From an uncultured virus (IMG/VR IMGVR_UViG_3300031994_000073) (lineage: Duplodnaviria > Heunggongvirae > Uroviricota > Caudoviricetes), in IMG/VR virus record IMGVR_UViG_3300031994_000073: a DNA stretch of 64,000 nucleotides, one strand, 5' to 3'. Made by a program: the position numbers and the translations under genes. Positions 3,960-14,140 of the stretch are shown here, one piece after another (within the stretch, counting starts at the first letter, position 1; each line of letters starts with the position of its first letter). The notes beneath the pieces are model-generated. The model was not told the origin of the DNA. It did not search any database and worked only from the letters and a program-made list of their open reading frames with translations.

Positions 3960-4082
3960 CTAAAAAATCATAAAAATATGAAAAATTATGTAAAACAAAG
4001 TTTACATACGAAAAACGCCCAAATTTCATCAATTTGGGCATATTGTCATTTTATGACAAAAATAGGTAAAATTTGATCTGAG

Positions 4083-4105
4083 CGGAGAGTGCAGGACTCG
4101 AACCT
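4083..4105 (-). pseudogene. 3' remnant of a tRNA (Ser-like T arm and acceptor strand)
   Basis: AGGTTCGAGTCCTGC-ACTCTCC-G abutting the stop codon of endonuclease 4106..4735; no matching 5' half found. Confidence 0.75.
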
Positions 4106-4735
4106 TTATTCTCCGATGAAATTACTAGCTATAGAAATCCATCTTTTTGGCTCTGCATACATTTCTTTCCATTTTATTCTTAAAACTTGCCAACCATTTT
4201 CAATAAGTTTTGAATCTTTCCTGAGATCTGATTCAGCTTGTTGTTCATTTCGTTGATGTTGAGCACCGTCAATTTCTATGCAACGTTTCTTTTTAACCCA
4301 AGCAAAATCTAATCTATATTGAAAGAACTGATAATTGTATTCATAATCTTTATCATTAAACTCATTTTCTATTACTTTTGTGAAGAATTCTTCCGGATAG
4401 CTTTTCTTGCTCGAATGGCAGTTCATCCATCCATGCCATCTGCCTGATCTATATCCTTCTAAAGCGCGTTCACGTAAAATTTGTTTTTGTTCAGCAGAAA
4501 CTGAGTGACCATTATAAGGTGCAGGATTAGGATTTTTCTTACATCTGCGTTCATGTAAACGCATACCGCACAATGTAGTAATTACCGTATGTCCACAAAA
4601 TTTACATGTTAATGAACGTTTTGGCTGTTGTCCACATTTAATTTTATGAACTTCATGTAAATGTTTATATTTTAGTCCTTTAGAATCAAAAACATCAGTA
4701 CAATAAGGACACGGCCATTTAAAATGTATTTTCAT
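4106..4735 (-). CDS. DUF559/Vsr-like putative homing endonuclease with N-terminal Zn fingers
   Basis: CPYC..HLHEVH and CKFC..HERRC; RLDFAW..IEIDGAQH..DLRKDSKLIENGWQVLRI; AAGGAG RBS; TATAAATA upstream. Confidence 0.85.
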   Translation of the reverse strand: MKIHFKWPCPYCTDVFDSKGLKYKHLHEVHKIKCGQQPKRSLTCKFCGHTVITTLCGMRLHERRCKKNPNPAPYNGHSVSAEQKQILRERALEGYRSGRWHGWMNCHSSKKSYPEEFFTKVIENEFNDKDYEYNYQFFQYRLDFAWVKKKRCIEIDGAQHQRNEQQAESDLRKDSKLIENGWQVLRIKWKEMYAEPKRWISIASNFIGE

Positions 4736-4779
4736 CTTTTCTCCTTTTTAGCTTTTTATGGTTATTCCCGTAACCATTT

Positions 4780-4787
4780 TATTTATA
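4780..4787 (-). promoter_or_regulatory. T4-type late promoter TATAAATA
   Basis: Exact match to the T4 gp55 consensus, upstream of the endonuclease. Confidence 0.7.
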
Positions 4788-4842
4788 CAGTTAGATGCTT
4801 TGGAGAAAGCATCAGCTGGCGGGAACCAGTTGTCCTGTATTA

Positions 4843-4927
4843 CTGCGGGTGCAGGATTCGAACCCGCGGCCCATTACTGAGCGGTTCGTTAGCACCGAAC
4901 TGGTTTAGACCACTCACCCAACCCGCA
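4843..4927 (-). tRNA. tRNA-Ser(GCT), divergent
   Basis: TGCGGGT/ACCCGCA acceptor, G73, loop GT-GCT-AA, long variable arm. Confidence 0.85.
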
Positions 4928-4933
4928 AAAAGC

Positions 4934-5035
4934 AAGATACCATTTTGTTTCACCTCCGGCATGTGCTGCCGGCGCTCTATACTTAAGCTATTGTTCCCAA
5001 GGCGGAATAAGAAATATTCTTGCTGTTAGTATCTT
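4934..5035 (-). ncRNA. AAGAT-CAGCA family element 1
   Basis: AAGATAC-TAACAGCAA...GTATCTT terminal stem; internal D-arm-like TAGCTTAAGTATAGAGC. Confidence 0.55.
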
Positions 5036-5040
5036 TAAAG

Positions 5041-5124
5041 TAGCCAAGGAAGGACTTGAACCTTCACGCCCTTGCGGGCAGGGGTGTTTGAGACCCCGGC
5101 GTCTACCAATTCCGCCACTTGGCC
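5041..5124 (-). tRNA. tRNA-Leu(CAA)
   Basis: Cloverleaf, loop CT-CAA-AC, variable arm. Confidence 0.92.
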
Positions 5125-5348
5125 AAAAATAAAAATAATTCATTACAAGTTAGCACAGATTGTTTCATGCTATGTTCCTCTGTGTCCCGGGTGACTTTCC
5201 GGCCCTTCTTACATAGGATTGCGTATCGTTATATCACCTCACTCAAGTATCGCCGCTTTAAATGCGCATTAGCAAGCTAACGACTCAAATAAGAACTTCA
5301 ATTCCTGGCAGGCCAATATGTCCAGTGAAGTAACGAATTATTTTGTAG

Positions 5349-5420
5349 CAGGGACACCTGGACTCGAACCAAGATCCACGGTTTTGGAGACCGCCATTCT
5401 GGCCATTGAACTATATCCCT
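5349..5420 (-). tRNA. tRNA-Trp(CCA)
   Basis: Cloverleaf, loop CT-CCA-AA. Confidence 0.92.
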
Positions 5421-5431
5421 AGATAAATTAG

Positions 5432-5502
5432 TTGCCCGTGATGGACTTGAACCACCAATTCATGAGTCAGAGTCATGCGTGTTACCATTACACCAACGGG
5501 CA
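5432..5502 (-). tRNA. tRNA-Gln(CTG)
   Basis: Cloverleaf, loop CT-CTG-AC. Confidence 0.92.
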
Positions 5503-5508
5503 ATAAAC

Positions 5509-5734
5509 AAGATACTGTCGCGGTTGAGTCGCCGCTGTGCTCTCACCATATCTCTCCTGGTAGGCAACAGCTTGCTGCAAGTTCATTCAGTTTCTACTGA
5601 CATATTCCGTCACTTGTACGAACAGGCCGTGGGAGCAGGCAACGATATTACTACCGCCGGCAATTACCCTACCCTAATTCCACATTTTGATTGTGTCATC
5701 GTTAGTAAGCGTTTTATTTTGCTGTAAGTATCTT
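5509..5734 (-). ncRNA. AAGAT-CAGCA family element 2
   Basis: AAGATAC-TTACAGCAA...GTATCTT terminal stem. Confidence 0.55.
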
Positions 5735-5737
5735 ATA

Positions 5738-5814
5738 GTCCCATAGCCGAGATTTGAACCCGGACCTCATGCGCCACAAGCATGCGTGCTTTACCAATTA
5801 ACACCACTGCGGGG
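5738..5814 (-). tRNA. tRNA-His(GTG)
   Basis: Loop TT-GTG-GC, T arm TTCAAAT; imperfect acceptor stem, ends approximate. Confidence 0.8.
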
Positions 5815-5822
5815 ATGTATAG

Positions 5823-5892
5823 TTGCGAAGGTGGGTACCGCCCCCACGGAGGCCGGCTTATGAGACCGGCTGGAATACTTATTCTCCTCGCA
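5823..5892 (-). tRNA. atypical tRNA-Met(CAT)
   Basis: TGCGAGG/CTTCGCA acceptor, loop CT-CAT-AA, minimal D loop, T loop GGCGGTA. Confidence 0.75.
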
Positions 5893-5902
5893 ATAAAAAT
5901 TC

Positions 5903-6008
5903 AAGATGCTCCATTGGACTGACGGCCGGTCTCGAACCAGCATCTCGGGAAATCCCGTGCTCTAGCCTATTGAGCTACTCCAGCGTTCAGATCTGCTGTT
6001 TGCATCTT
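5903..6008 (-). ncRNA. AAGAT-CAGCA family element 3 with tRNA-like core
   Basis: AAGATGC-AAACAGCA...GCATCTT; internal D arm GCTC/GAGC, short stem CGGGA/TCCCG without a 7-nt loop, T arm GCTGG-TTCGAGA-CCGGC. Confidence 0.6.
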
Positions 6009-6011
6009 TAG

Positions 6012-6083
6012 AGCCCTATCCCGGACTCGAACCGGGGACACCTGCTTGGAAGGCAGAAATGTTAACCACTACACCAATAGGGC
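6012..6083 (-). tRNA. tRNA-Gly(TCC)
   Basis: Cloverleaf, loop CT-TCC-AA, U73. Confidence 0.92.
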
Positions 6084-6092
6084 AAATGTTAG

Positions 6093-6165
6093 AGCCCCAT
6101 GTCGGACTCGAACCGACAACTTTCTCCATGGCAAGGAGATATGCTACCAATTGCATCAATGGGAC
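6093..6165 (-). tRNA. tRNA-Gly(GCC)
   Basis: Cloverleaf, loop TT-GCC-AT, U73. Confidence 0.92.
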
Positions 6166-6169
6166 TTAG

Positions 6170-6260
6170 AGGAGATGGAGGGATTCGAACCCCCGTGCGG
6201 AATGGTTACCGCCCATGGTTTTCAAGACCAGTCCGATAAGCCGTGCTCTGGCACATCTCC
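6170..6260 (-). tRNA. tRNA-Ser(TGA)
   Basis: Cloverleaf, loop CT-TGA-AA, long variable arm. Confidence 0.9.
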
Positions 6261-6273
6261 AAAAAAATTCTAG

Positions 6274-6357
6274 AGCTGAGAGAGGGACTCGAACCCACGA
6301 AGTGTTTCCACCACAGTTTTGCAGACTGTGTCCTTTGCCGCTCGGATTCACCTCAGC
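6274..6357 (-). tRNA. tRNA-Cys(GCA) with long variable arm
   Basis: Loop CT-GCA-AA, U73, variable hairpin GTG-GAAA-CAC. Confidence 0.85.
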
Positions 6358-6489
6358 ATAGTTTATTTATTCTGGCTGTGAGATCCCTAAACTTCAACTT
6401 ATTCTCACCGTTCTCCTGAGAAGGAGTTTTTGGTTTACGCTGGACTTCCACCAGATTTAGCCGGAGTTAATCGGCTCACCAGAATTTCG

Positions 6490-6562
6490 TGCTCTCGGCA
6501 GGACTCGAACCTGCATTATCGGATTCGTAGTCCGATGGTCTATCCAGTTAGCCTACGAGAGC
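6490..6562 (-). tRNA. tRNA-Arg(ACG)
   Basis: Cloverleaf, loop CT-ACG-AA. Confidence 0.92.
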
Positions 6563-6568
6563 AAATAG

Positions 6569-6651
6569 TCGCTCAGGAGGGACTCGAACCCCTCACGCCT
6601 TTCGGCACGGGCTTCTTAGACCCGCGTGTCTACCAATTCCACCACCGAGCG
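6569..6651 (-). tRNA. tRNA-Leu(AAG)
   Basis: Leu-type body, loop CT-AAG-AA, A73. Confidence 0.88.
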
Positions 6652-6662
6652 AAATGTTTTAG

Positions 6663-6746
6663 TGACCTAAGAGGGACTCGAACCCCCACGCCCTTGCGGG
6701 CATCTGATCCTAAGTCAGGCGGGTCTACCAATTCCCCCACTAGGCC
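6663..6746 (-). tRNA. tRNA-Leu(TAG)
   Basis: Loop CT-TAG-GA, variable arm. Confidence 0.9.
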
Positions 6747-6753
6747 AAATTAG

Positions 6754-6826
6754 TGCCTCCCTCCCGTAACGATCGGGAATCCTCGGATTTTCAGTCCGTT
6801 GCATAGACCATCTTTGCTAGAGAGGC
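6754..6826 (-). tRNA. tRNA-Phe(GAA)
   Basis: Loop CT-GAA-AA; T loop ATCGTTA. Confidence 0.88.
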
Positions 6827-6832
6827 AAAAGC

Positions 6833-6892
6833 AAGATACATTTGGATTCAAGATTAAAAATTGAATTGGGTTAAAGTTGCTGCATGTATCTT
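6833..6892 (-). ncRNA. AAGAT-CAGCA family element 4 (minimal)
   Basis: AAGATAC-ATGCAGCAA...GTATCTT. Confidence 0.55.
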
Positions 6893-6895
6893 TAG

Positions 6896-6969
6896 TCCGC
6901 AGGGTAGGATTTGAACCTACAACCTCCAGTATATCAGACTGACAAACGAACCAATCGTTATGCCTGCGG
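6896..6969 (-). tRNA. tRNA-Ile(GAT), divergent copy
   Basis: CCGCAGG/CCTGCGG acceptor, loop CT-GAT-AT. Confidence 0.8.
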
Positions 6970-6978
6970 AAAATTTAG

Positions 6979-7052
6979 TCCGCAACCCTGGACTCGAACC
7001 AGGAACCTCCACCTTATCAGAGTGGCTATCTAACCAATTGCTATAGCTGCGG
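6979..7052 (-). tRNA. tRNA-Ile(GAT)
   Basis: CCGCAGC/GTTGCGG acceptor, loop CT-GAT-AA. Confidence 0.88.
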
Positions 7053-7256
7053 AAAAAGAGCGAAGACCCCTTAAGTCCAGTTAAAAACAGTTATATCGCT
7101 GTCACTGTTACCATCTTTTCAACGGCGGCCAACCAAGGGAAGATGTTACCAACCTCGTTTCTTTTCATCAAGAAGCGTAGAATGGAGAAGTCGTATTTAA
7201 CGTGGTCCTCTCGCGACGGCACGCTCCCAGTAAGCCAAGGACTCTCACTGGATTAG

Positions 7257-7331
7257 TTCCCGAGGAGGGATTCGAACCCCCGACCTTCTGTGTGTAAAAC
7301 AGCGGCTCTAAACCAACTGAGCTACCCGGGA
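7257..7331 (-). tRNA. tRNA-Val(TAC)
   Basis: Cloverleaf, loop TT-TAC-AC. Confidence 0.92.
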
Positions 7332-7394
7332 ATAAGCACTGCTGATATACTCAAGTTCGTTTGTTTCAGTTCTCTGTTGCATATCAGTATTTCG

Positions 7395-7467
7395 TGGACG
7401 GGAAGGGACTCGAACCCTTAACCTTCTGCTTGCAAAGCAGTTGCGCTACCAGTTGCGCCACGAGCCC
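7395..7467 (-). tRNA. tRNA-Ala(TGC)
   Basis: G3:U70, loop TT-TGC-AA. Confidence 0.9.
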
Positions 7468-7617
7468 ATAAAAGGTGAAGAACGGGCGTAGATAAGTCAT
7501 GAACTCATCCAAACTTCACTGATGTATGAAATCTAACTTATACAAGCATTGGACGTTAGAATCTCCATCTTCTCTGTGCAGAAAATGCTAAACACTCACA
7601 GAGTTCCGTTTTTGAAG

Positions 7618-7688
7618 CGGTCTCAACGGGTCACGATCCCGTACCTCCGGCGTGACAAGCCGGTATCCATCCATTAAACGATGAGACC
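7618..7688 (-). tRNA. tRNA-Asp(GTC)
   Basis: Loop TT-GTC-AC, G73; T loop ATCGTGA. Confidence 0.88.
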
Positions 7689-7698
7689 AAAATGTTAG

Positions 7699-7772
7699 TA
7701 GCGCTGTCGGGACTCGAACCCGAATTTCCGACTTGAAAGGCCGACGAACTGAACCAGTTATTCGACAGCGCC
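7699..7772 (-). tRNA. tRNA-Glu(TTC)
   Basis: Loop CT-TTC-AA. Confidence 0.9.
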
Positions 7773-7776
7773 ATAG

Positions 7777-7848
7777 TAGCGGGGGTCGGGATCGAACCGA
7801 CGACTTCCAGGTTATGGGCCTGGCGAGCTACCACTGCTCTACCCCGCA
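7777..7848 (-). tRNA. tRNA-fMet(CAT)
   Basis: Initiator-type body with 1:72 mismatch, loop CC-CAT-AA. Confidence 0.88.
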
Positions 7849-7862
7849 ATAAAAAGCGTTAG

Positions 7863-7935
7863 CTGGGAAGGAGGGACTCGAACCCCCAACATAGTGGTTA
7901 ACAGCCACCCGTTCTGCCATTAGAACTACAACCCA
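7863..7935 (-). tRNA. tRNA-Asn(GTT)
   Basis: Loop CT-GTT-AA, G73. Confidence 0.9.
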
Positions 7936-7944
7936 ATGTAATAG

Positions 7945-8017
7945 TGGACAATAAGGGACTCGAACCCTTGACCTCCTGAGTGCAAATCAGGCGTTCTTCC
8001 AACTGAACTAAAAGCCC
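7945..8017 (-). tRNA. tRNA-Ala(TGC), second copy
   Basis: G3:U70, loop TT-TGC-AC. Confidence 0.9.
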
Positions 8018-8155
8018 ATAAGTTTCGCCCCTTACTCAACTACCTGCAGTTAGCTTTTCGTGGACTTGTCAATTCCCGGGTGGACTTGAACCACCGTGTC
8101 CGTCCGTTTTAGCGTCCGGTCCAACTACCGTCATTGGACAGTCATTGACCATTAG

Positions 8156-8242
8156 TGGGTGGCGAGGGATTCGGACCCCCAAAGCCCGTTAGGGCGGCGG
8201 AGTTACAGTCCGCCCTGACTCACCAGCCGTCAGCGGCCACCC
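8156..8242 (-). tRNA. tRNA-Tyr(GTA)
   Basis: Loop CT-GTA-AC, variable arm; T loop TCCGAAT. Confidence 0.88.
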
Positions 8243-8425
8243 ATAAGAAACTGTTCTCAGTGCAGCGACCCCGCAACCTGCACCATTCGCTGTTCTTCAC
8301 CAAATCGTATTGAAACAATCCACTGAAGTGCTCGCCTGTGCCGTAACCATACTTGCAACCAATTCCTGCTCTGCGCATCAAGCCAAAATCAATCGTTTTC
8401 AGATTACTGCTATTTTTGAACAGTA

Positions 8426-8500
8426 TCGGGCTAGTCGGATTCGAACCGACGACCTCTTGATCCCAAATCAAGCGCTCTAGCCAGACTGAGCTACAGCCCG
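8426..8500 (-). tRNA. tRNA-Pro(TGG)
   Basis: CGGGCTG acceptor, loop TT-TGG-GA. Confidence 0.92.
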
Positions 8501-8655
8501 TTATTCGCCCTGTACTTAAACCCTCTAGAAAAGTCTGTTCTAGGACTTGCCTATCGTTGTCCCTATCTCAACCAGACTCGAACTGATTTTTCTGCCACGA
8601 TTGACAGCGTCTTATCCTGAAGACCTTTTTGATAGTTTCTATTGTAAGCCGTTAG

Positions 8656-8693
8656 TGCCCCAGGAAGGACTCGAACCTTCAACCCACGGATTA
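8656..8693 (-). pseudogene. 3' half of an interrupted tRNA
   Basis: TAA-TCCGT-GGGTT-GAAGG-TTCGAGT-CCTTC-CTGGGGC-A; pairs with the 5' half at 9435-9467. Confidence 0.88.
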
Positions 8694-8702
8694 TGGCTTT
8701 TA

Positions 8703-8775
8703 TGGGAGTACCGAGACTCGAACTCGGATTCGACGATTAAGAGTCGCCTATACTAGCCAATTGTATTATACTCCC
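8703..8775 (-). tRNA. tRNA-Lys(CTT) nested inside the interrupted tRNA
   Basis: GGGAGTA/TACTCCC acceptor, loop CT-CTT-AA; 5' end overlaps the last codons and stop of the endonuclease. Confidence 0.88.
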
Positions 8776-9419
8776 ATTAGGAATTTACGGACAATTTCAA
8801 TCCATTCTTTTGGATTTTTATAGCATTCTTGCCAAGGAATCCTAAGTTCTTTCCAGCCGTTTTCTGTTAGAAGCTTATCTTTTGCAGCATCTCTCAGTTT
8901 TTGAGTATTGTCTGTTTGATGTTGCTTCCCATCAACTTCTATGCACAGTTTCTTGGTCGGCCAAGCAAAATCTAAAGAAAATCTACCAAAGGAAAATTCA
9001 GTTTTGTAATCTTCATTTTCTCTAAGATCAAATTCATCAGCTAGAACTTTTATCAACCATTTTTCTGGCCAACTATGTTCATTATTCCAACGGCATTGCC
9101 CTATGTTATAGGCTCTGCCTTCAGAATGTGCTAACTTCATTGATTCAAAAATTTTAGATTTCGTCTTCGCAGAATGTTTTTTGTCCTTCCATGAAGGAAT
9201 TATTTCGCCATTTCTGTAGCGTTCACTTAGTCTTTCTCCTTTAATTCTCAGAATATCATTTGTTTCTTTGTTTTTTCCTTTATTCCAGGGTTCTTTGCCT
9301 TTCATGTGATTGACATAAACTCTATCTGGATTTTCAGGACAAAGTCGCTCATGATTTCGGTGAGCATTTGGATTTTTACAAGTTCTGCCACAGAATTTAC
9401 AAATACAAGACGTTTCCAT
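8766..9419 (-). CDS. DUF559/Vsr-like putative homing endonuclease (Zn finger, NUMOD3-like)
   Basis: CKFC..HERLC; PWNKG; KKHSAKTKSK; FSLDFAW..IEVDGKQH..DKLLTENGWKELRI; start trimmed to ATG 9419 after TATAAATA (9424-9431). Confidence 0.85.
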   Translation of the reverse strand: METSCICKFCGRTCKNPNAHRNHERLCPENPDRVYVNHMKGKEPWNKGKNKETNDILRIKGERLSERYRNGEIIPSWKDKKHSAKTKSKIFESMKLAHSEGRAYNIGQCRWNNEHSWPEKWLIKVLADEFDLRENEDYKTEFSFGRFSLDFAWPTKKLCIEVDGKQHQTDNTQKLRDAAKDKLLTENGWKELRIPWQECYKNPKEWIEIVRKFLMGV

Positions 9420-9434
9420 ATTGTATTTATATTC

Positions 9435-9467
9435 AGTCCGCTGCGCTACCAATTGCGCCACTGGGGC
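9435..9467 (-). pseudogene. 5' half of the interrupted tRNA
   Basis: GCCCCAG-TG-GCGC-AATTGGTA-GCGC-A-GCGGA-CT, ending in the anticodon loop. Confidence 0.88.
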
Positions 9468-9575
9468 ATGGAATTGATCTTGTAATCAATATGTTCTATT
9501 TATTACAAGAACTTTTCAAAAACTGCCATTTTTTCAATTTTCTGCCAATCTTCGCGAGAGAGGCATTTTATTTTG

Positions 9576-9724
9576 ACGTATCAAATATAAAAAATTATTT
9601 TGATTTTGTCAAGGGTAAAAATTGAAATTTTTTCATTTTTTTCAAAAATTTTCAATTTTTCTTGTTGAGATCGAGCAATCAATTTCAACGTAGTAAATAT
9701 AACAATTAGTTTCCAATCCGTCAA
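9576..9724 (-). promoter_or_regulatory. two tandem sigma70-like promoters (9576-9612, 9688-9724) upstream of the tRNA array
   Basis: TTGAC(A/G)-17-TATATT in both. Confidence 0.8.
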
Positions 9725-9818
9725 CCAATTTTTTCAAATTTTTTCAATTTTTTCTGTAAACTTTTGTAAACAGAAACAGTTGATACAGTTGATAGATTGT
9801 TGATAACTGTCAATTTAG

Positions 9819-10192
9819 TGGGGACCGGAGGAGTTGAACCTCCACAGGAACTTCACCTGCGTTATTAGTTCCATGCACCTATCTATTGAGAGCTTACCTC
9901 AACTCGTGTGATGCACCGCCTCTCCTTATCCATCCTTCCATCAAGAAGTAACTTCAGCCCGATTATGGGAGCTACCCAGTCTTCTACTTGCAACTTCGAG
10001 ACTTCTGTCGTTTCAGCGAGTTCCGATCCTATCTGCTCTAGCTAAGAGCTAGCCATTCACGGTTCTACTTACTCCTTTATATGGGACTTTCATTAGGAAG
10101 GACCAAGATCGCAGCTACAAAGAGCAACCAATGCAACTACTTTCGGCTTGTCGTATCATCTTTGTCTTACTCGCCATTGGCGGAGGGTCCCC
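9819..10192 (-). ncRNA. 374-nt RNA with tRNA-like acceptor stem and T arm
   Basis: 5' GGGGACC pairs with 3' GGTCCCC-A; T arm GGAGG-TTCAACT-CCTCC; followed by CTA like the tRNAs. Confidence 0.7.
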
Positions 10193-10203
10193 GAATATCT
10201 TAG

Positions 10204-10275
10204 CGCCTTCACCCGGACTCGAACCAGGAATAGCTGATTACAAATCAGCTCGTTTACCGATTAACGTATAAAGGC
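10204..10275 (-). tRNA. tRNA-Thr(TGT)
   Basis: Loop TT-TGT-AA. Confidence 0.9.
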
Positions 10276-10354
10276 AAATAAAAGCGCTGGAGCTGAAAGT
10301 TAGCAGCATTACTCGAGTTGTCTGCAGTTCAATCCGCTCCTATCGCAATTTTAG

Positions 10355-10427
10355 CTGGGAAGACAGGACTCGAACCTGTGACATGGTGGTTAACAGCCAC
10401 CCGTTCTACCGACTGAACTACAACCCA
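10355..10427 (-). tRNA. tRNA-Asn(GTT), second copy
   Basis: Loop CT-GTT-AA. Confidence 0.9.
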
Positions 10428-10657
10428 AAAAGGGAGCGCGACCCTAACGGCTACGGCCCGAAATGAAACTTGTACTTTGTTTCAAATGATGTTCGCCTAA
10501 CATCTCTTCGCTCAATACCGGTGAGACCGCCAATCGTGCACCTTAAAGGCGATCTCCCTCAACACCCATAAAGCGTCTCGTCAGGTGAGACCTCCCTCAA
10601 TTAGCGGCTCGGCTGATTACGTTAGTATCGCTATCGCTAAATGGCTGTTGAGATTAG

Positions 10658-10730
10658 CGCCCGCAGAGGGATCCGAACCCCCGACCTGATGATTACTAAA
10701 CATCTGCTCTACCAGCTGAGCTATACGGGC
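10658..10730 (-). tRNA. tRNA-Thr(AGT)
   Basis: GCCCGTA acceptor, loop TT-AGT-AA. Confidence 0.85.
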
Positions 10731-11064
10731 AAAAGGGAGCAGAAACACTGTGAGCATCGGTGATGCTCTTGGCCAATCTGAAGCGTGAACGCGTAATCGG
10801 CTCCAGAATAAAGGCACGAGGACTGTTTGCTACCTGTCAGGATTGACTTACCTTTGCTATTGCCTTACTCGGTTAGGAGCGGTTAGCATTGGGCAATCAC
10901 TGATACAACTTTCAGGGAACGTGAGGAGTACGGACCGGACTCGCACCGCGTCAGCCGCGCCGTTAAAGAAGCGGGGCTCCAAAACTAAGCAACTCAACCT
11001 ACCTTTAACCCCGGTAGGCATTAGTCGCACGCTCTAAACAGTAGTATCTCGTTGTTTCCGCTAG

Positions 11065-11138
11065 TAGTCCCATTTGGCGTCGAACCAAATTTTCCAGGTT
11101 GAAAACCTAGCGTCCTATCCATCGTAGACGATGGGACC
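11065..11138 (-). tRNA. tRNA-Glu(TTC), second copy
   Basis: Loop TT-TTC-AA. Confidence 0.88.
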
Positions 11139-11203
11139 ATAGATAAACGGATTTCCAAATTTTCAATTTTCCACTTCGCTTCACGAGCGAGGCGTTTTGA
11201 TTG

Positions 11204-11240
11204 ACAGATCAAATATAAAAATTATTTTTGATTCTGTCAA
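11204..11240 (-). promoter_or_regulatory. sigma70-like promoter
   Basis: TTGACA-17-TATATT. Confidence 0.75.
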
Positions 11241-11448
11241 CCGATTTTTCAAAATTTTTCAAAATTTCAACTGAAAAATTTTGAGGGTTGCGGCGCAGAT
11301 TCGCAAGCGATTCTGCATAGACCCGCTCGTTAGGGTTTTGTCGTGAGCCAGATCAACCGCGCTTCCCTTGTCAGCGCCAGAGGGCTTTTTCAACGAGCAA
11401 GGCTTTAGCCTAGGATTTTCTGTAATCAAACCGTTGTTGATTTTGATT

Positions 11449-11485
11449 ACGTAGTAAATATAACAACTTTATTGCTACTTGGCAA
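11449..11485 (-). promoter_or_regulatory. sigma70-like promoter
   Basis: TTGCCA-17-TATATT-TACTACGT. Confidence 0.8.
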
Positions 11486-11716
11486 TTGGAAATTTGAAAA
11501 TTTTTTCCGAAATATTACACTTTCTTCAAAATAGTCAAAAATCCGTGTTATATTGGCAATTTATCAACTGTTAGCGAACCACAGGAATCTCGCAGGTTTA
11601 TCAGGTTTTTGTGTAATAAACCGACGTTTTCCATGTAATTTTAAGCAACAGTTTTTAGGACGTATCCTCTAAATTGCCGCCTGACAAAATGTTTTATCAA
11701 CACTTTATCAACATAG

Positions 11717-11803
11717 TAGGCATACGAGGAGTCGGACCTCTCTGCACCGCCCTGGATTGTTTATGCAGCCCGGGTTATGAGTCCGGCCCAAGGTAGTACG
11801 CCT
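11717..11803 (-). tRNA. D-arm-less tRNA-like gene, anticodon CAT (Ile2 or Met)
   Basis: AGGCGTA/TATGCCT acceptor, loop CT-CAT-AA, T arm GAGG-TCCGACT-CCTC, no D stem, long variable region. Confidence 0.75.
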
Positions 11804-11869
11804 ATTTCGTTTAACTTGTTACCGCAGTAGCGTTCTGCTTTGAGAGAATTTCACTCTCGCCAATTTTAG

Positions 11870-11940
11870 TTGCCCGCGGTGGTACCGCCCCACCTCCAAG
11901 AGATTCAAAGTCTCCTATACTACTTCTATACGAGCGGGCA
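11870..11940 (-). tRNA. tRNA-Gln(TTG), atypical T loop
   Basis: TGCCCGC/GCGGGCA acceptor, loop CT-TTG-AA, T loop GGCGGTA. Confidence 0.82.
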
Positions 11941-12121
11941 AAAAGTGCCGGGCTACCGGCTAATGCGAAAGACGCCGAGGAACGCAAGTTTACCGCGAAT
12001 AGACTCTTGTTCCTCTAGTCTGCGCTGGGTTGATTCCCACCTGTCCTTCCGGGCTCGAACCGGACACTCCCCCGTCAAGGAGGCGTTTTGCCAACCGATA
12101 AACTAAGGCACGCAGATTTAG

Positions 12122-12194
12122 TAGTGCATTCGGGATTCGGACCCGAGTCTCCAGCTTGAGAGGCTAGCGAACTAACCAACTATTCTAATGCACC
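12122..12194 (-). tRNA. tRNA-Glu(CTC)
   Basis: Loop CT-CTC-AA. Confidence 0.88.
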
Positions 12195-12202
12195 AAATGT
12201 AG

Positions 12203-12282
12203 TACGCTGGGCGGGGATCGAACCCGCATTTTCAACTCCAGTTACGGATAACGGATTAGAAGTCCGAACCGGTTACCAGCGT
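12203..12282 (-). tRNA. D-arm-less tRNA-like gene, anticodon TCT (Arg)
   Basis: ACGCTGG/CCAGCGT acceptor, loop CT-TCT-AA, T arm GCGGG-TTCGATC-CCCGC, no D stem, long variable region. Confidence 0.78.
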
Positions 12283-12295
12283 GTAATGTCAATAG

Positions 12296-12985
12296 TTAAA
12301 GATTGTTGATCTTTGAAACTAAGTCTAAAACGAATTTCTCTTGCTTTTCTTTAGAAAGCTTCTTATATTTACTCCATCTAATTCTATCTAGGCATTTCCA
12401 TCCATCAGACTTTAATCTTTCAGTTCTAAGAATGTCATGTTCTAATATTCTTTTATCTAAATAATGTTGTTCTCCATCAATTTCTAAATAAGTCTTTTTA
12501 TCAGGCCAAGCAAAATCAAGATAATATCCGAGTATTTTGTAATTCTGTTCGTAAGTGATCCTATTATTCTCGAACACCGTTTTGAAGTATTGCTCTGGAT
12601 AGCTATCTCCTTTAGAATGGTGATTCAATACATAAGGTACTTTTTCTGGATGTTCAGCTAAATAATGTTTTCTACTTTCAGAGATTCTTTTCTTAGTCTC
12701 TTCTGAATGCTTCTTACCTAAATAAGCTGGCATCAATTCTTCCGTTTCATACCTTTTCTTTAATTTTTCTGCCGCTGCTTTTAATCTTACATCGTCTTCA
12801 CCGGTTCGTCCAGCATTCCAAGCTTTACATCCAGGAGCATATTTTCTTTTTCCATCTAAGATTACGTATTGAATATGAACTTTCGGACCTTTTTCACAGA
12901 CTCTTTTATGTTCTATAAGATCTATTTTTCTAGGAAATAAATCTTTACAGTACGGACATTTCCAATTTTCATTGCACCTCTTCAT
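12296..12985 (-). CDS. DUF559/Vsr-like putative homing endonuclease (Zn finger, NUMOD3)
   Basis: CPYC..HKRVC; YLGKKHSEETKKRISES; YLDFAW..LEIDGEQH..DILRTERLKSDGWK; TTTAAATA upstream. Confidence 0.85.
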   Translation of the reverse strand: MKRCNENWKCPYCKDLFPRKIDLIEHKRVCEKGPKVHIQYVILDGKRKYAPGCKAWNAGRTGEDDVRLKAAAEKLKKRYETEELMPAYLGKKHSEETKKRISESRKHYLAEHPEKVPYVLNHHSKGDSYPEQYFKTVFENNRITYEQNYKILGYYLDFAWPDKKTYLEIDGEQHYLDKRILEHDILRTERLKSDGWKCLDRIRWSKYKKLSKEKQEKFVLDLVSKINNL

Positions 12986-13008
12986 GATTTATTTAAACTC
13001 AAAACTTA

Positions 13009-13081
13009 TGGGGACATAGGGACTCGAACCCTAAATCGCGCATTAAAAGTGCGCAGTAATAACCAGTTTTACTATATCCCC
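13009..13081 (-). tRNA. tRNA-Lys(TTT)
   Basis: Loop CT-TTT-AA. Confidence 0.88.
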
Positions 13082-13098
13082 AAGGGATTCTAAAATTA

Positions 13099-13182
13099 TC
13101 GGCCTGAACGGACTCGAACCGATACGGCGTTACCGCCGGGGGATTTTAAGTCCCCTGTGTCTACCAATTTCACCACAAGCCG
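13099..13182 (-). tRNA. tRNA-Leu(TAA)
   Basis: Loop CT-TAA-AA, variable arm. Confidence 0.9.
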
Positions 13183-13187
13183 TGAGA

Positions 13188-13340
13188 TTAGTAGTCGTAT
13201 AATTCTGATTGGGAACGTTTTCGGGTTTTGATCTTTATACCCGCTTGAGAGGCAAAAGACCTGGCCGTCTTCAAATTCTTGGCCCAACGCTGTTCTTTTT
13301 CTTCGCGTGTTTCAATGTGTCTTTCATGATTCTTTTTCAT
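13188..13340 (-). CDS. small basic hypothetical protein (50 aa, MKKNHERH...), absent from the ORF track
   Basis: ATG to TAA open frame with GAGG RBS, downstream of the promoter at 13390-13426. Confidence 0.55.
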   Translation of the reverse strand: MKKNHERHIETREEKEQRWAKNLKTARSFASQAGIKIKTRKRSQSELYDY

Positions 13341-13389
13341 TTTTGCCTCTTGTTGTTAGTTGCTTTTAAAAAGTATTGTTGTTTTTGTT

Positions 13390-13426
13390 ACAGATAAAAT
13401 ATAATAACTTTTATTCAATCTGTCAA
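13390..13426 (-). promoter_or_regulatory. sigma70-like promoter
   Basis: TTGACA-17-TATATT. Confidence 0.75.
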
Positions 13427-13468
13427 CTGTTTTAATGTATTTATAACAAAGAATTTTCTAAATCTTCA

Positions 13469-14140
13469 TTATAGAACGAATCCGCCGGTGATTGCTTTGT
13501 CAACGACAGCAGCGAGCTTCTCAGCGTATTCAAGCTGCTTCTTAGCGTAAGCTCTTTGCTTCTCGACGATTTCGTTGCAGGCAGCCTTGATCTCGTCTTC
13601 GGAGTACCATTCCTTCTTGTCAAGCCAGACGTAGGTCTTGAGATAGTAAAGATCGCCGCCATCGGTGCGGACCGGCGTAAGAGTCTCAAGATCAACGTCA
13701 CGCCAGAGCTGTAACTTGACGTGATAGCCTTTCGGTTCCCACGTGCGGATGAACGGAAATCTCGTCTTCACATCTTCATACTTCACCAGTCCCTTAGCGG
13801 CTGCTTGGATCATTTGGACCTTCGCCTCGTGAGCGATAGCTTTCTTCACTGCAAGCATTAAGTGCAGTAAGTCTTCACAGAGTTCTCTACTGAAGGCACG
13901 AGGATAACCGCCTTGAAGCGACCAGCCCTTTGGCTTGGTAACACAAAGATGCGCAGTGTTGTACGTCTTTTCAGCCAGCTTAGTGATGACTTGGTCAAAC
14001 CAATCAGTATTAGACTCAGCATTGCTGATGGCGTCAGCGTTATCCTTCATGAAGGCATTGAAACTGCCTGCAGTCCAGAACGGAATGCCACGGAAGACCT
14101 TTTGCTGTTCCTTAGTAAGATAGCTGAAAAAAGACGGCAT
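13469..14140 (-). CDS. hypothetical protein
   Basis: 223 aa ORF, GAGGA RBS. Confidence 0.75.
   Translation of the reverse strand: MPSFFSYLTKEQQKVFRGIPFWTAGSFNAFMKDNADAISNAESNTDWFDQVITKLAEKTYNTAHLCVTKPKGWSLQGGYPRAFSRELCEDLLHLMLAVKKAIAHEAKVQMIQAAAKGLVKYEDVKTRFPFIRTWEPKGYHVKLQLWRDVDLETLTPVRTDGGDLYYLKTYVWLDKKEWYSEDEIKAACNEIVEKQRAYAKKQLEYAEKLAAVVDKAITGGFVL

What the first reader, a model, noticed from the sequence alone, without database searches (positions are those of the whole stretch)
11717..12282. Two D-arm-less tRNAs in which a variable-region pairing replaces the D stem
Seen: 11717-11803 (CAT) and 12203-12282 (TCT) have good acceptor stems, 7-nt anticodon loops and T arms. Each has only ~9-10 nt where the D arm should be and a ~24-29 nt variable region. 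In both, the residual D segment is complementary over 6 bp to a segment of the variable region, using different sequences: CCTTGG/CCAGGG and CCGGTT/AACTGG. In the CAT gene that segment sits in the loop of a CTGCAT/GTGCAG hairpin, giving a pseudoknot, and the acceptor/T stems can also be drawn 8/4. Known: D-arm-less tRNAs are characteristic of animal mitochondria rather than bacteria. Inference: a distinct tRNA architecture for AUA (if lysidine-modified) and AGA codons, or decoys for anticodon nucleases. No other tRNA-Arg(TCT) or clear Ile2 is present in the array.
Basis: partly seen in the sequence, partly recalled or inferred. Interest (0 to 1): 0.87.

Follow-up and report, generated by a model that had tools for sequence, protein, structure and literature searches.

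The report
Two phage tRNAs without D hairpins
A phage's tRNA gene cluster holds two conserved tRNA genes (for the codon AGA and probably AUA) that lack the usual D arm and instead enclose the anticodon arm in a long-range helix, so non-cloverleaf tRNAs are not confined to mitochondria.

Summary
Both stretches are real, on the minus strand of a 33-tRNA phage array, and ARAGORN misses both.

12282..12203 (UCU) belongs to a large phage-borne class of 80-nt tRNA-Arg/Ile genes: 86 distinct sequences gathered here, and 92.2 bits on my model against 33 or less for the window's normal tRNAs. Covariation supports two stacked long-range helices around the anticodon arm: UAAC/GUUG and CGNN/NNCG. That helix uses the invariant GG of a D-loop-like bulge (UARNNGGA), whose R covaries with the base before the T stem like a Levitt pair. 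The base after GG is A in 70 of 70 Arg members and U in 14 of 15 Ile-type members.

11803..11717 (CAU) is a second design: 87 nt with an 8/4 acceptor/T branch. I found one homologue, with anticodon UAU.

Most likely both are working tRNAs. AGA makes up 37% of the window's Arg codons and no other UCU tRNA is present. Charging and decoding are untested.

Seven literature searches found no description. Earlier agents of this scan noted both designs on other DNA.

The parts
12203..12282 (-). Candidate 2: 80-nt tRNA-Arg(UCU) gene of the D-hairpin-less 'nested anticodon arm' class
   Evidence: Model R2 92.2 bits, E 4e-20. Rfam RF00005 35.4 bits. Missed by ARAGORN.
12276..12282 (-). Candidate 2 acceptor stem, 5' strand; pairs with 12204-12210; discriminator A at 12203
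   Evidence: 7 of 7 pairs in the sequence. All 7 pairs change on both sides across the family, 96.7% of cells paired.
12272..12275 (-). Helix H2, 5' strand UAAC; pairs with GUUG at 12233-12236
   Evidence: 98.6% of cells paired. Pair 10-52: AU 56, GC 7, UA 2, CG 1, GU 1, other 2. Pair 12-51: CG 62, UA 3, UG 3, other 1.
12268..12271 (-). Helix H3, 5' strand CGGU; pairs with UCCG at 12245-12248 (3 pairs plus U.U in this copy)
   Evidence: Pair 14-40: GC 60, CG 7, GU 1, other 2. Pair 15-39 has the highest non-stem mutual information, 0.64, reached by 0 of 5000 permutations.
12251..12267 (-). Candidate 2 anticodon arm; loop CUUCUAA at 12256-12262, anticodon UCU at 12258-12260
   Evidence: Sequence. 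All 5 stem pairs covary in the family.
12237..12244 (-).
   Evidence: GG is invariant. The next base is A in 70 of 70 Arg-type and U in 14 of 15 Ile-type members. R pairs with the base before the T stem: A-U 66, G-C 13, G-G 6, U-U 1 of 86.
12228..12232 (-). Linker AAAAU; its last base is the position-48-like partner of the bulge purine
   Evidence: Mutual information 0.61-0.76, reached by 0 of 5000 permutations.
12211..12227 (-). Candidate 2 T arm (GCGGG UUCGAUC CCCGC)
   Evidence: Sequence; 97.7% of cells paired in the family.
11717..11803 (-). Candidate 1: 87-nt D-hairpin-less tRNA-like gene, anticodon CAU (11777-11779), 8/4 acceptor/T branch
   Evidence: Homologue L468 (anticodon UAU, also 87 nt) scores 64.9 bits on model R1, which was built from candidate 1. 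Pair table.
11787..11793 (-). Candidate 1 long-range helix, 5' strand CCUUGGG; pairs with UCCAGGG at 11750-11756
   Evidence: Against L468: 4 pairs the same, 1 changed on one side, 2 changed on both sides, 0 broken.
11742..11768 (-). Possible variable-arm hairpin CUGCAU (11763-11768) / GUGCAG (11742-11747), whose loop holds the 3' strand of the long-range helix
   Evidence: Sequence only. In L468, 5 pairs are identical and 1 is lost, so there is no covariation either way.
11726..11740 (-). Candidate 1 T arm: 4-bp stem GAGG/CCUC, loop UCCGACU
   Evidence: Sequence. The stem is identical in L468, whose loop is UUCAACU.
12296..12985 (-). 229-aa ORF with DUF559 / MTES_1575 nuclease and NUMOD3 matches, ending 13 nt upstream of candidate 2
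   Evidence: Pfam PF04480 27.5 bits (cut-off 20.6) and NUMOD3 20.0 bits.

Best explanation
Both stretches are genes for tRNAs that are not cloverleaves.

Candidate 2 (12282..12203) belongs to a large, essentially phage-borne class of 80-nt tRNA-Arg and tRNA-Ile genes. In this class the anticodon arm is nested inside two stacked long-range helices.
- The four bases after the acceptor stem (UAAC) pair with GUUG.
- The next four bases (CGGU here) pair with four bases just 3' of the anticodon stem (UCCG).
- Between the two 3' strands lies an 8-nt bulge, UAACUGGA, that keeps the signature of a D loop (A14, R15, G18 G19, A20).
- The purine of that bulge covaries with the base before the T stem, as the Levitt pair 15-48 does.

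I infer that the bulge docks on the normal T loop and rebuilds the elbow of the L shape. I also infer that the host's arginyl-tRNA synthetase charges the RNA, using the A after GG and the anticodon, and that it reads AGA, a common codon of this phage with no other reader in the array.

Candidate 1 (11803..11717) is a second, rarer design: 87 nt with an 8/4 acceptor/T branch. A 7-bp helix between the 5' connector and the variable region encloses the anticodon arm. It sits in the slot where a related phage has a normal tRNA(CAU), and it probably serves AUA (if lysidine-modified) or AUG.

Shown: conservation, the helices (by covariation), and the pattern of identity elements.
Inferred: the fold in three dimensions, processing, charging and decoding.
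For: Class size and specificity:
- A pattern scan of viral contigs gave 111 loci. 63 distinct sequences passed an acceptor/T-arm filter.
- With model-found relatives, 86 distinct sequences were collected.
- Candidate 2 scores 92.2 bits on the class model. The best normal tRNA of the window scores 33.0.

Stems: on a structure-blind MAFFT alignment of 70 Arg-type members, the acceptor, anticodon and T stems are 96.7, 91.4 and 97.7% paired. 16 of their 17 pairs change on both sides.

H2 and H3:
- Pair 10-52 has 10 double changes and pair 12-51 has 3.
- Pair 14-40 has 7 double changes, with 2 of 70 cells unpaired.
- Pair 15-39 has 24 double changes and mutual information 0.64, reached by 0 of 5000 permutations.
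- The 14 Ile-type members give H2 95.2% and H3 91.1% paired.

D-loop mimic:
- The purine and the base before the T stem pair as A-U 66, G-C 13, G-G 6, U-U 1 of 86.
- The base after GG is A in 70 of 70 Arg-type and U in 14 of 15 Ile-type members. The discriminator is A in 15 of 15 Ile-type members.
- That A20 is the main ArgRS identity element and A73 an IleRS element is recalled knowledge, not a tool result.

Anticodons of the 86: UCU 33, ACG 21, UCG 14, CCG 2, UAU 8, GAU 6, CAU 1, UGU 1.

Role in a tRNA set:
- In 30 loci with 1.5 kb on each side (28 distinct), none has an ARAGORN tRNA-Arg with the same anticodon elsewhere in the locus. 13 of the 28 have tRNA-Arg genes with other anticodons.
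- AGA is 227 of 610 Arg codons in 50 ORFs of the window.
- Both candidates carry the C-T-A trailer after the discriminator, as do 23 of the 33 ARAGORN tRNAs.

Candidate 1:
- Pair table against L468. Model R1 scores L468 at 64.9 bits.
- The related phage G003 has a normal 73-nt tRNA(CAT) between the same flanks, with a 14-nt identical anticodon-arm core.
- Contigs from four RNA libraries of four studies cover part or all of 11717-11803 (X5 only from 11787), with no listed difference inside it. This shows presence, not transcription.
Against: - No experiment shows that either RNA is made, processed, charged or used.
- H3 is imperfect. Pair 15-39 is unpaired in 29 of 70 sequences (mostly A.C) and pair 16-38 in 42 of 70. 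In this copy the fourth H3 pair and the first anticodon-stem pair are both U.U.
- CGTA, GTTG, AA and GTTCRA were fixed by the search pattern for 63 of the sequences, so their invariance there is by construction. The covariation in H2 and at 14-40 rests on about 20 model-found relatives.
- Alignment A4 is fitted to the model.
- One phage (CcrColossus) has a normal tRNA-Arg(ACG) directly beside its class member with the same anticodon.
- Candidate 1 rests on a single homologue. Its fold energy is not unusual (z -1.39). Its T loop is non-standard. It scores below the window's normal tRNAs on both class models: 14.3 bits on R2, and 9.6 bits (rank 36) on R3.
Confidence: 0.7

Rival explanations
1. 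Candidate 2 folds. CCGGUU pairs with AACUGG, giving a 10-layer extended anticodon helix with an 8-nt bulge, and this helix is the working replacement of the D stem.
For: The helix is present and is the more stable fold of this copy: -26.3 against -23.9 kcal/mol, and the unconstrained optimum uses a variant of it. Its first two pairs (CC with GG) hold in 70 of 70 and 69 of 69 aligned members. It could be an alternative conformer.
Against: - Pairs 3 to 5 fail in 14 of 69, 32 of 65 and 55 of 70 members.
- Their mutual information is 0.0, 0.16 and 0.02, with permutation fractions 1.0, 0.21 and 0.89.
- The full 5-bp version occurs in 5 of 53 members against 4.9 expected.
- H2, which has 10 and 3 double changes, takes one of the two C's.
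- The GG behaves like G18 G19: it is invariant and followed by a class-specific base.
Confidence: 0.12
2. One or both RNAs do not work in translation. They could be decoys or baits for host tRNA-cutting defences, or passengers or immunity copies of the homing-endonuclease cassettes in the array. The 8/4 allo-tRNA(UAU) species tested in E. coli were inactive in translation.
For: - A DUF559/NUMOD3 nuclease ORF ends 13 nt upstream of candidate 2.
- Endonuclease-type ORFs (GIY-YIG, HNH, DUF559, NUMOD3) lie within the 3-kb locus in 8 of 28 class loci, three of them directly adjacent.
- Contigs of two RNA libraries leave the window exactly at the 3' end of candidate 2. They run on into what reads like another tRNA's T arm and acceptor strand, so the slot varies between strains.
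- The relative G003 has normal tRNA-Arg(UCU) and tRNA(CAU) genes.
- Mukai et al. found six allo-tRNA(UAU) variants inactive in E. coli and linked them to toxin-antitoxin and transposon loci (PMC5389517, passages read).
Against: - A decoy would not need anticodons that complement the neighbouring normal Arg tRNAs: the same anticodon is seen elsewhere in none of the 28 distinct loci.
- Nor would it need an Arg-specific A after GG and an Ile-specific A73, or a full EF-Tu-type 12-bp acceptor/T branch.
- AGA is 37% of the window's Arg codons and has no other reader here.
- The endonuclease count has no control, and such genes are common in phage tRNA arrays.
Confidence: 0.15
3. Candidate 1 is a decaying or rearranged remnant of the normal tRNA(CAU) that a related phage keeps in the same slot, and has no function of its own.
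For: - It occupies the same flanks and shares a 14-nt anticodon-arm core with the 73-nt tRNA of G003.
- Rfam and ARAGORN do not match it.
- Its fold z-score is -1.39 and its T loop is non-standard.
- Only one homologue was found after five sequence searches and a model scan of 50 phage records.
Against: - An unrelated phage contig (L468, beside exonuclease and terminase genes) carries the same 87-nt layout, with 55 of 87 identical letters.
- Its acceptor stem is wholly different but still pairs 8 of 8, and there are two compensatory changes in the long-range helix.
- No difference within 11717-11803 is listed in any of the four RNA-library contig sets, while a base 15 nt away in the spacer (11818) varies.
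Confidence: 0.1

Closest known systems
Canonical bacterial and phage tRNA-Arg (Rfam RF00005), for example the normal tRNA-Arg(UCU) of the related phage G003 (L268 17648-17722)
   Same: 7-bp acceptor stem, 5-bp T stem with a GTTCRA loop, 7-nt anticodon loop with U33, an A-R-N-N-G-G-A motif, and purine/position-48 covariation. Candidate 2 passes Rfam's threshold (35.4 against 29 bits).
   Different: There is no D hairpin between the acceptor and anticodon stems. The D-loop-like bases lie 3' of the anticodon arm. Two long-range helices (UAAC/GUUG and CGNN/NNCG) give a three-way instead of a four-way junction.
D-armless mitochondrial tRNAs of animals (mammalian mt-tRNA-Ser(AGY), nematode mt-tRNA-Ser); named from recall and from the review PMC7609411, of which I read passages only
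   Same: No D hairpin. The anticodon helix is extended by pairing of the 5' connector with the variable region.
   Different: The phage genes are 80 and 87 nt, not about 55-65 nt. Candidate 2's class keeps a standard T loop, GG, and a Levitt-like pair. They sit in phage genomes and must work with bacterial ribosomes, EF-Tu and synthetases. The acceptor identities are Arg and Ile rather than Ser.
(8/4) allo-tRNAs, especially allo-tRNA(UAU) (Mukai et al., PMC5389517; abstract and passages read)
   Same: Candidate 1 can form an 8-bp acceptor stem plus a 4-bp T stem, has a long variable region, and has a UAU/CAU-type anticodon. 8/4 tRNAs are reported from phage tRNA clusters.
   Different: The paper says allo-tRNAs have a D stem-loop with a long stem and tetraloop, and mostly G73 or U73. 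Candidate 1 and L468 have 9 nt and no hairpin there, and A73. The paper's supplement, which holds the allo-tRNA(UAU) structures, could not be read, so overlap with that set cannot be excluded.
Circularly permuted tRNA genes of the red alga Cyanidioschyzon merolae (recalled; no paper read)
   Same: The order of tRNA segments in the gene departs from the textbook order.
   Different: There the mature tRNA is a normal cloverleaf after processing through a circular intermediate. Here the acceptor ends are in normal order, only the D/anticodon domain is re-ordered, and nothing suggests such processing.

Membership tests
tRNA (Rfam RF00005) | Score at or above the curated gathering threshold (29 bits) | tested here: met
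   This row is for candidate 2: 35.4 bits. Candidate 1 has no match at E up to 10, so the feature is not met for it.
tRNA (Rfam RF00005) | Acceptor, anticodon and T stems kept by covariation | tested here: met
   Candidate 2's class: 16 of 17 pairs change on both sides. Candidate 1 against L468: acceptor 6 double and 1 single change of 8 pairs; anticodon stem 1 double and 1 single; T stem unchanged.
tRNA (Rfam RF00005) | D arm hairpin between the acceptor and anticodon stems (cloverleaf) | tested here: not met
   8-9 nt in both candidates. Rfam aligns candidate 2 with the D arm deleted.
tRNA (functional) | Aminoacylation and decoding on the ribosome | not testable with these tools
   Only indirect evidence: the identity-element pattern, codon use and complementary anticodons.
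   This row is for candidate 2: 92.2 bits on R2 and 63.8 on R3. Normal tRNAs of the window score 33.0 or less and 29.7 or less.
   14.3 bits on R2 with filters off. 9.6 bits on R3, rank 36 in 4000-14000.
Phage 'nested anticodon arm' tRNA-Arg/Ile class | UAAC/GUUG and CGNN/NNCG helices, a UARNNGGA bulge, and an NAAAN linker | tested here: met
   Candidate 2 has all of them. H3 is 3 pairs plus a U.U.
D-armless mitochondrial tRNA | Encoded in an animal mitochondrial genome; shortened, with a reduced or absent D/T-loop contact | tested here: not met
   The context is a phage: 33 tRNAs, phage ORFs, and viral contigs as relatives. Length is 80-87 nt, and candidate 2 has a standard T loop and GG.
(8/4) allo-tRNA (Mukai et al.) | 12-bp acceptor branch split 8/4 | tested here: met
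   Candidate 1: 8 + 4 pairs. The eighth pair is C-G in the window and U-A in L468.
(8/4) allo-tRNA (Mukai et al.) | tRNA-Sec-like D stem-loop (long stem, tetraloop) and G73/U73 | tested here: not met
   There is no hairpin in the 9 nt, and the discriminator is A in both sequences. The feature is taken from passages of PMC5389517.

The most novel reading that the evidence does not exclude
Phages have evolved at least two separate ways to build a translation-competent tRNA without a D hairpin. In both, the anticodon arm is nested inside a long-range helix. In the larger class, the D-loop bases are moved to the 3' side, where they can still reach the T loop. These designs are confined to Arg and Ile acceptors. 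The rewiring may pay off because it removes the D-arm surface, or the gene sequence, that host tRNA-directed nucleases or homing endonucleases recognise, while synthetase, EF-Tu and ribosome contacts are kept.
Probability: 0.45. Interest if true: 0.88.

Novelty: new variant of a known kind. Interest (0 to 1): 0.8.

Why it matters
The cloverleaf is treated as universal outside organelles. tRNA finders, and annotation built on them, skip genes that break it: ARAGORN missed both genes here.

A widespread phage tRNA class with a different strand topology, working with ordinary bacterial synthetases, EF-Tu and ribosomes, would have several consequences.
- It would show how much of the tRNA core is dispensable.
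- It would add missing Arg/Ile decoders to phage codon-usage accounts.
- It would offer natural scaffolds for orthogonal tRNA design.
- It would give a testable link between tRNA shape and the arms race over tRNA-cutting defences and homing endonucleases.

Tried and rejected
Homologues of candidate 1:
- blastn against GenBank phages found only chance matches of 23-31 nt. The same was true with L468 as query.
- A viral pattern keeping its loops gave 0 loci.
- A second viral pattern gave 1 locus, a chance match in a repeat.
- A metagenome pattern on the conserved flanks gave 3 loci: the window's own lineage, G003, and an identical twin of G003.
- Model R1 matched 0 of 50 phage records. The model was later shown to work on L468, at 64.9 bits.
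- The last viral scan (UAU anticodon at the same spacing) gave 1 true homologue among 91 loci.

Other checks:
- A model-B-like fold of candidate 1 (UACC/GGUG) is not supported. Both class models score candidate 1 below normal tRNAs, and those bases do not vary in L468.
- A D-like hairpin inside the variable region of candidate 2 (AAC...GUU) was considered by eye and dropped, because GUU pairs with the 5' UAAC instead. It was not counted formally.
- Expression: contigs of four RNA libraries were laid on the stretch. None covers candidate 2, which allows no conclusion. Cover of candidate 1 shows presence in RNA libraries only, and no silent control stretch was laid.
- Prior description: csRNA DNAVirus_2961 of PMC10690425, which overlaps tRNA-Arg calls, is 56 nt and comes from human-gut Bifidobacterium phages. 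It is not this class.
- Phage-encoded ArgRS: PF00750 was found in 0 of 5 phage records, including the window's near-twin.
- Endonuclease linkage: 8 of 28 loci, without a control. This is not conclusive.
Full report
SETTING. The window carries 33 ARAGORN tRNA genes, all on the minus strand, between 4842 and 13182. Three DUF559-type nuclease ORFs lie among them. The nearest held record is a 184.7-kb virus contig, identical over the 621 nt tested. GenBank phages hold no close relative. Both candidates lie on the minus strand, and ARAGORN calls neither.

OBSERVATION. Rfam's tRNA model matches candidate 2 at 35.4 bits (threshold 29), with the D arm deleted and a 20-nt insertion. It does not match candidate 1. 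The 6-bp and 7-bp complementarities alone are not beyond chance: 18% and 7.9% of 20,000 shuffles reach them.

CANDIDATE 2 BELONGS TO A LARGE PHAGE CLASS.
- A blastn hit to an unannotated stretch of Caulobacter phage CcrColossus revealed shared motifs.
- Pattern scans of viral contigs followed. The broadest gave 111 loci, and 63 distinct sequences passed an acceptor/T-arm filter.
- I aligned 53 Arg-type sequences (A1). I left out 10: nine Ile-type and one with a shifted register.
- A covariance model of A1 (R2) scores candidate 2 at 92.2 bits. The best normal tRNA of the window scores 33.0.
- Run over 50 phage records that had a pattern hit, R2 found 66 places at 40 bits or more, often several per phage.
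- I fetched 20 of the mid-scoring places, which no fixed pattern had selected.
- In all, 90 matches gave 86 distinct sequences (A4).
- Anticodons of the 86: UCU 33, ACG 21, UCG 14, CCG 2, UAU 8, GAU 6, CAU 1, UGU 1.

WHICH HELIX REPLACES THE D STEM IN CANDIDATE 2.
The general form of the class is:
acceptor(7) - UAAC - CGNN - anticodon arm - UA - NNCG - UARNNGGA - GUUG - NAAAN - T arm - acceptor.
I compared two models on a structure-blind MAFFT alignment of 70 Arg-type members (A5).

Model B (UAAC/GUUG = H2; CGNN/NNCG = H3):
- H2 is 98.6% paired. Pair 10-52 is AU 56, GC 7, UA 2, CG 1, GU 1, other 2. Pair 12-51 is CG 62, UA 3, UG 3, other 1.
- In H3, pair 14-40 is GC 60, CG 7, GU 1, other 2.
- Pair 15-39 is paired in 41 of 70, with 24 double changes.
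- Pair 16-38 is paired in 28 of 70.

- CC with GG always pairs.
- The next three pairs fail in 14 of 69, 32 of 65 and 55 of 70 members.

Further tests:
- In A1, the mutual information of 15-39 is 0.64, reached by 0 of 5000 permutations.
- The 14 Ile-type members give H2 95.2% and H3 91.1% paired.

Caveats:
- CGTA, GTTG, AA and GTTCRA were fixed by the pattern for most sequences.
- A4 is fitted to the model.

A D-LOOP MIMIC.
- The bulge between H3 and H2 reads U-A-R-N-N-G-G-A.
- Its purine pairs with the last linker base before the T stem as A-U 66, G-C 13, G-G 6, U-U 1 of 86. This is the pattern of the 15-48 Levitt pair (recalled).
- The base after GG is A in 70 of 70 Arg-type and U in 14 of 15 Ile-type members. 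The discriminator is A in 15 of 15 Ile-type members. This fits A20 as an ArgRS element and A73 as an IleRS element (recalled).
- I infer that the bulge docks on the standard T loop, that H3 stacks on the anticodon stem where the D stem would be, and that H2 joins the two connector strands.

FUNCTIONAL CONTEXT.
- AGA is 227 of 610 Arg codons (37%) and AUA 107 of 943 Ile codons in 50 ORFs of the window. The array has no other UCU tRNA.
- In 30 class loci with 1.5-kb flanks (28 distinct), none has a tRNA-Arg with the same anticodon elsewhere in the locus, and 13 of the 28 have tRNA-Arg genes with other anticodons. CcrColossus is an exception.
- 23 of the 33 ARAGORN tRNAs, and both candidates, carry C-T-A after the discriminator.
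- A DUF559/NUMOD3 ORF ends 13 nt upstream of candidate 2. Endonuclease-type ORFs lie in 8 of 28 class loci, without a control.
- The related phage G003 (ATPase 47% identical) has normal tRNA-Arg(UCU) and tRNA(CAU) genes.
- Contigs of two RNA libraries leave the window at 12200 and 12205, the 3' end of candidate 2, and run into what reads like another tRNA's 3' half. The slot therefore varies between strains.

CANDIDATE 1.
- It lies between the flanks that in G003 hold a normal 73-nt tRNA(CAT). It shares that tRNA's 14-nt anticodon-arm core, including an A.C next to the loop.
- It is not a member of candidate 2's class: 14.3 and 9.6 bits on the two class models.
- After four failed sequence searches and an empty model scan of 50 phage records, a spacing-based pattern with a UAU loop found one homologue, L468. 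It is 87 nt, a solitary gene beside exonuclease and terminase genes.
- Model R1, built from candidate 1, scores L468 at 64.9 bits.

Pair by pair against L468:
- Acceptor stem: 8 of 8 paired in both, with 6 double changes and 1 single change. The eighth pair goes from C-G to U-A.
- Long-range 7-bp helix: 4 the same, 1 single change, 2 double changes, 0 broken.
- Anticodon stem: 1 double change and 1 single change, and the A.C becomes U.G.
- Hairpin CUGCAU/GUGCAG: 5 the same, and 1 lost in L468.
- T stem: unchanged.

The pseudoknot stays open. The helix and the hairpin have equal energies, -27.3 and -27.4 kcal/mol.

KNOWN OR NEW.
- Seven full-text searches found no description of D-hairpin-less phage tRNAs.
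- A term search of the 2020 review of non-canonical tRNAs (PMC7609411) found no occurrence of 'phage' or 'virus' in its text; I read passages only.
- Mukai et al. (PMC5389517, passages) describe 8/4 allo-tRNAs, some in phages. These have a D stem-loop, and allo-tRNA(UAU) species were inactive in E. coli. Their supplement could not be read, so overlap with candidate 1's design cannot be excluded.
- Earlier agents of this scan noted the Arg class and an 87-nt UAU design on other DNA. I used those notes as leads only.

VERDICT. Both genes are real. Its specific helix holds for candidate 1 but not for candidate 2. Function as tRNAs is the best-supported reading, but it is untested.

Noticed in passing
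window 11880-11956 (-): A tRNA-Gln(UUG)-like gene with a 7-bp acceptor stem, a D arm and an anticodon arm. Its D loop has no GG and its T loop reads GGCGGUA. ARAGORN and Rfam both miss it. Its counterpart in the related phage (L268 17811-17882) is a normal ARAGORN tRNA-Gln. Both elbow partners seem to have changed together.
   Followed up: partly
window 5917-5984 (-): Rfam tRNA match (43.6 bits) that ARAGORN misses. The anticodon arm looks truncated, with a loop of about 4 nt.
   Followed up: partly
window 11982-12112 (-): ARAGORN's 'tRNA-Ser(tga)' at 12039-12112 has no Rfam match and poor acceptor pairing. One RNA-library contig skips 11982-12109, and two others diverge from the window at 12078. 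The segment varies between strains.
   Followed up: partly
window 12195-12205: Contigs of two RNA libraries leave the window at 12200/12205, exactly at the 3' end of candidate 2. They continue into a sequence that reads, on the other strand, like the T arm, acceptor strand, A and CTA of a different tRNA.
   Followed up: partly
window 4842-13182 (-): 23 of the 33 ARAGORN tRNAs are followed by C-T-A right after the discriminator, one letter away from CCA. Both candidates share this trailer.
   Followed up: partly
L446 4191-5381 (+) (virus record G028): A 396-aa ORF with a weak match to the ArgRS catalytic domain (PF00750 25.9 bits, cut-off 23.3). It lies directly upstream of two normal and two D-hairpin-less tRNA-Arg genes. 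It has no relative among solved structures by sequence.
   Followed up: partly
L397 859-2774; L401 1710-3078: RNA ligase plus metallophosphatase genes (L397), and RtcB plus metallophosphatase genes (L401), lie next to class members. This would suit tRNA repair.
   Followed up: no
window 7776-7848 (-): The array's ARAGORN tRNA-Met(cat) has the anticodon loop CCCAUAA, with C where U33 is expected. Its identity (Met or Ile2) is open.
   Followed up: no
L444 12-102; L432 16-104: Two class members carry insertions of 9-11 nt between GUUG-like H2 and the AAAU linker, one of them hairpin-like. That site therefore tolerates an extra arm.
   Followed up: no
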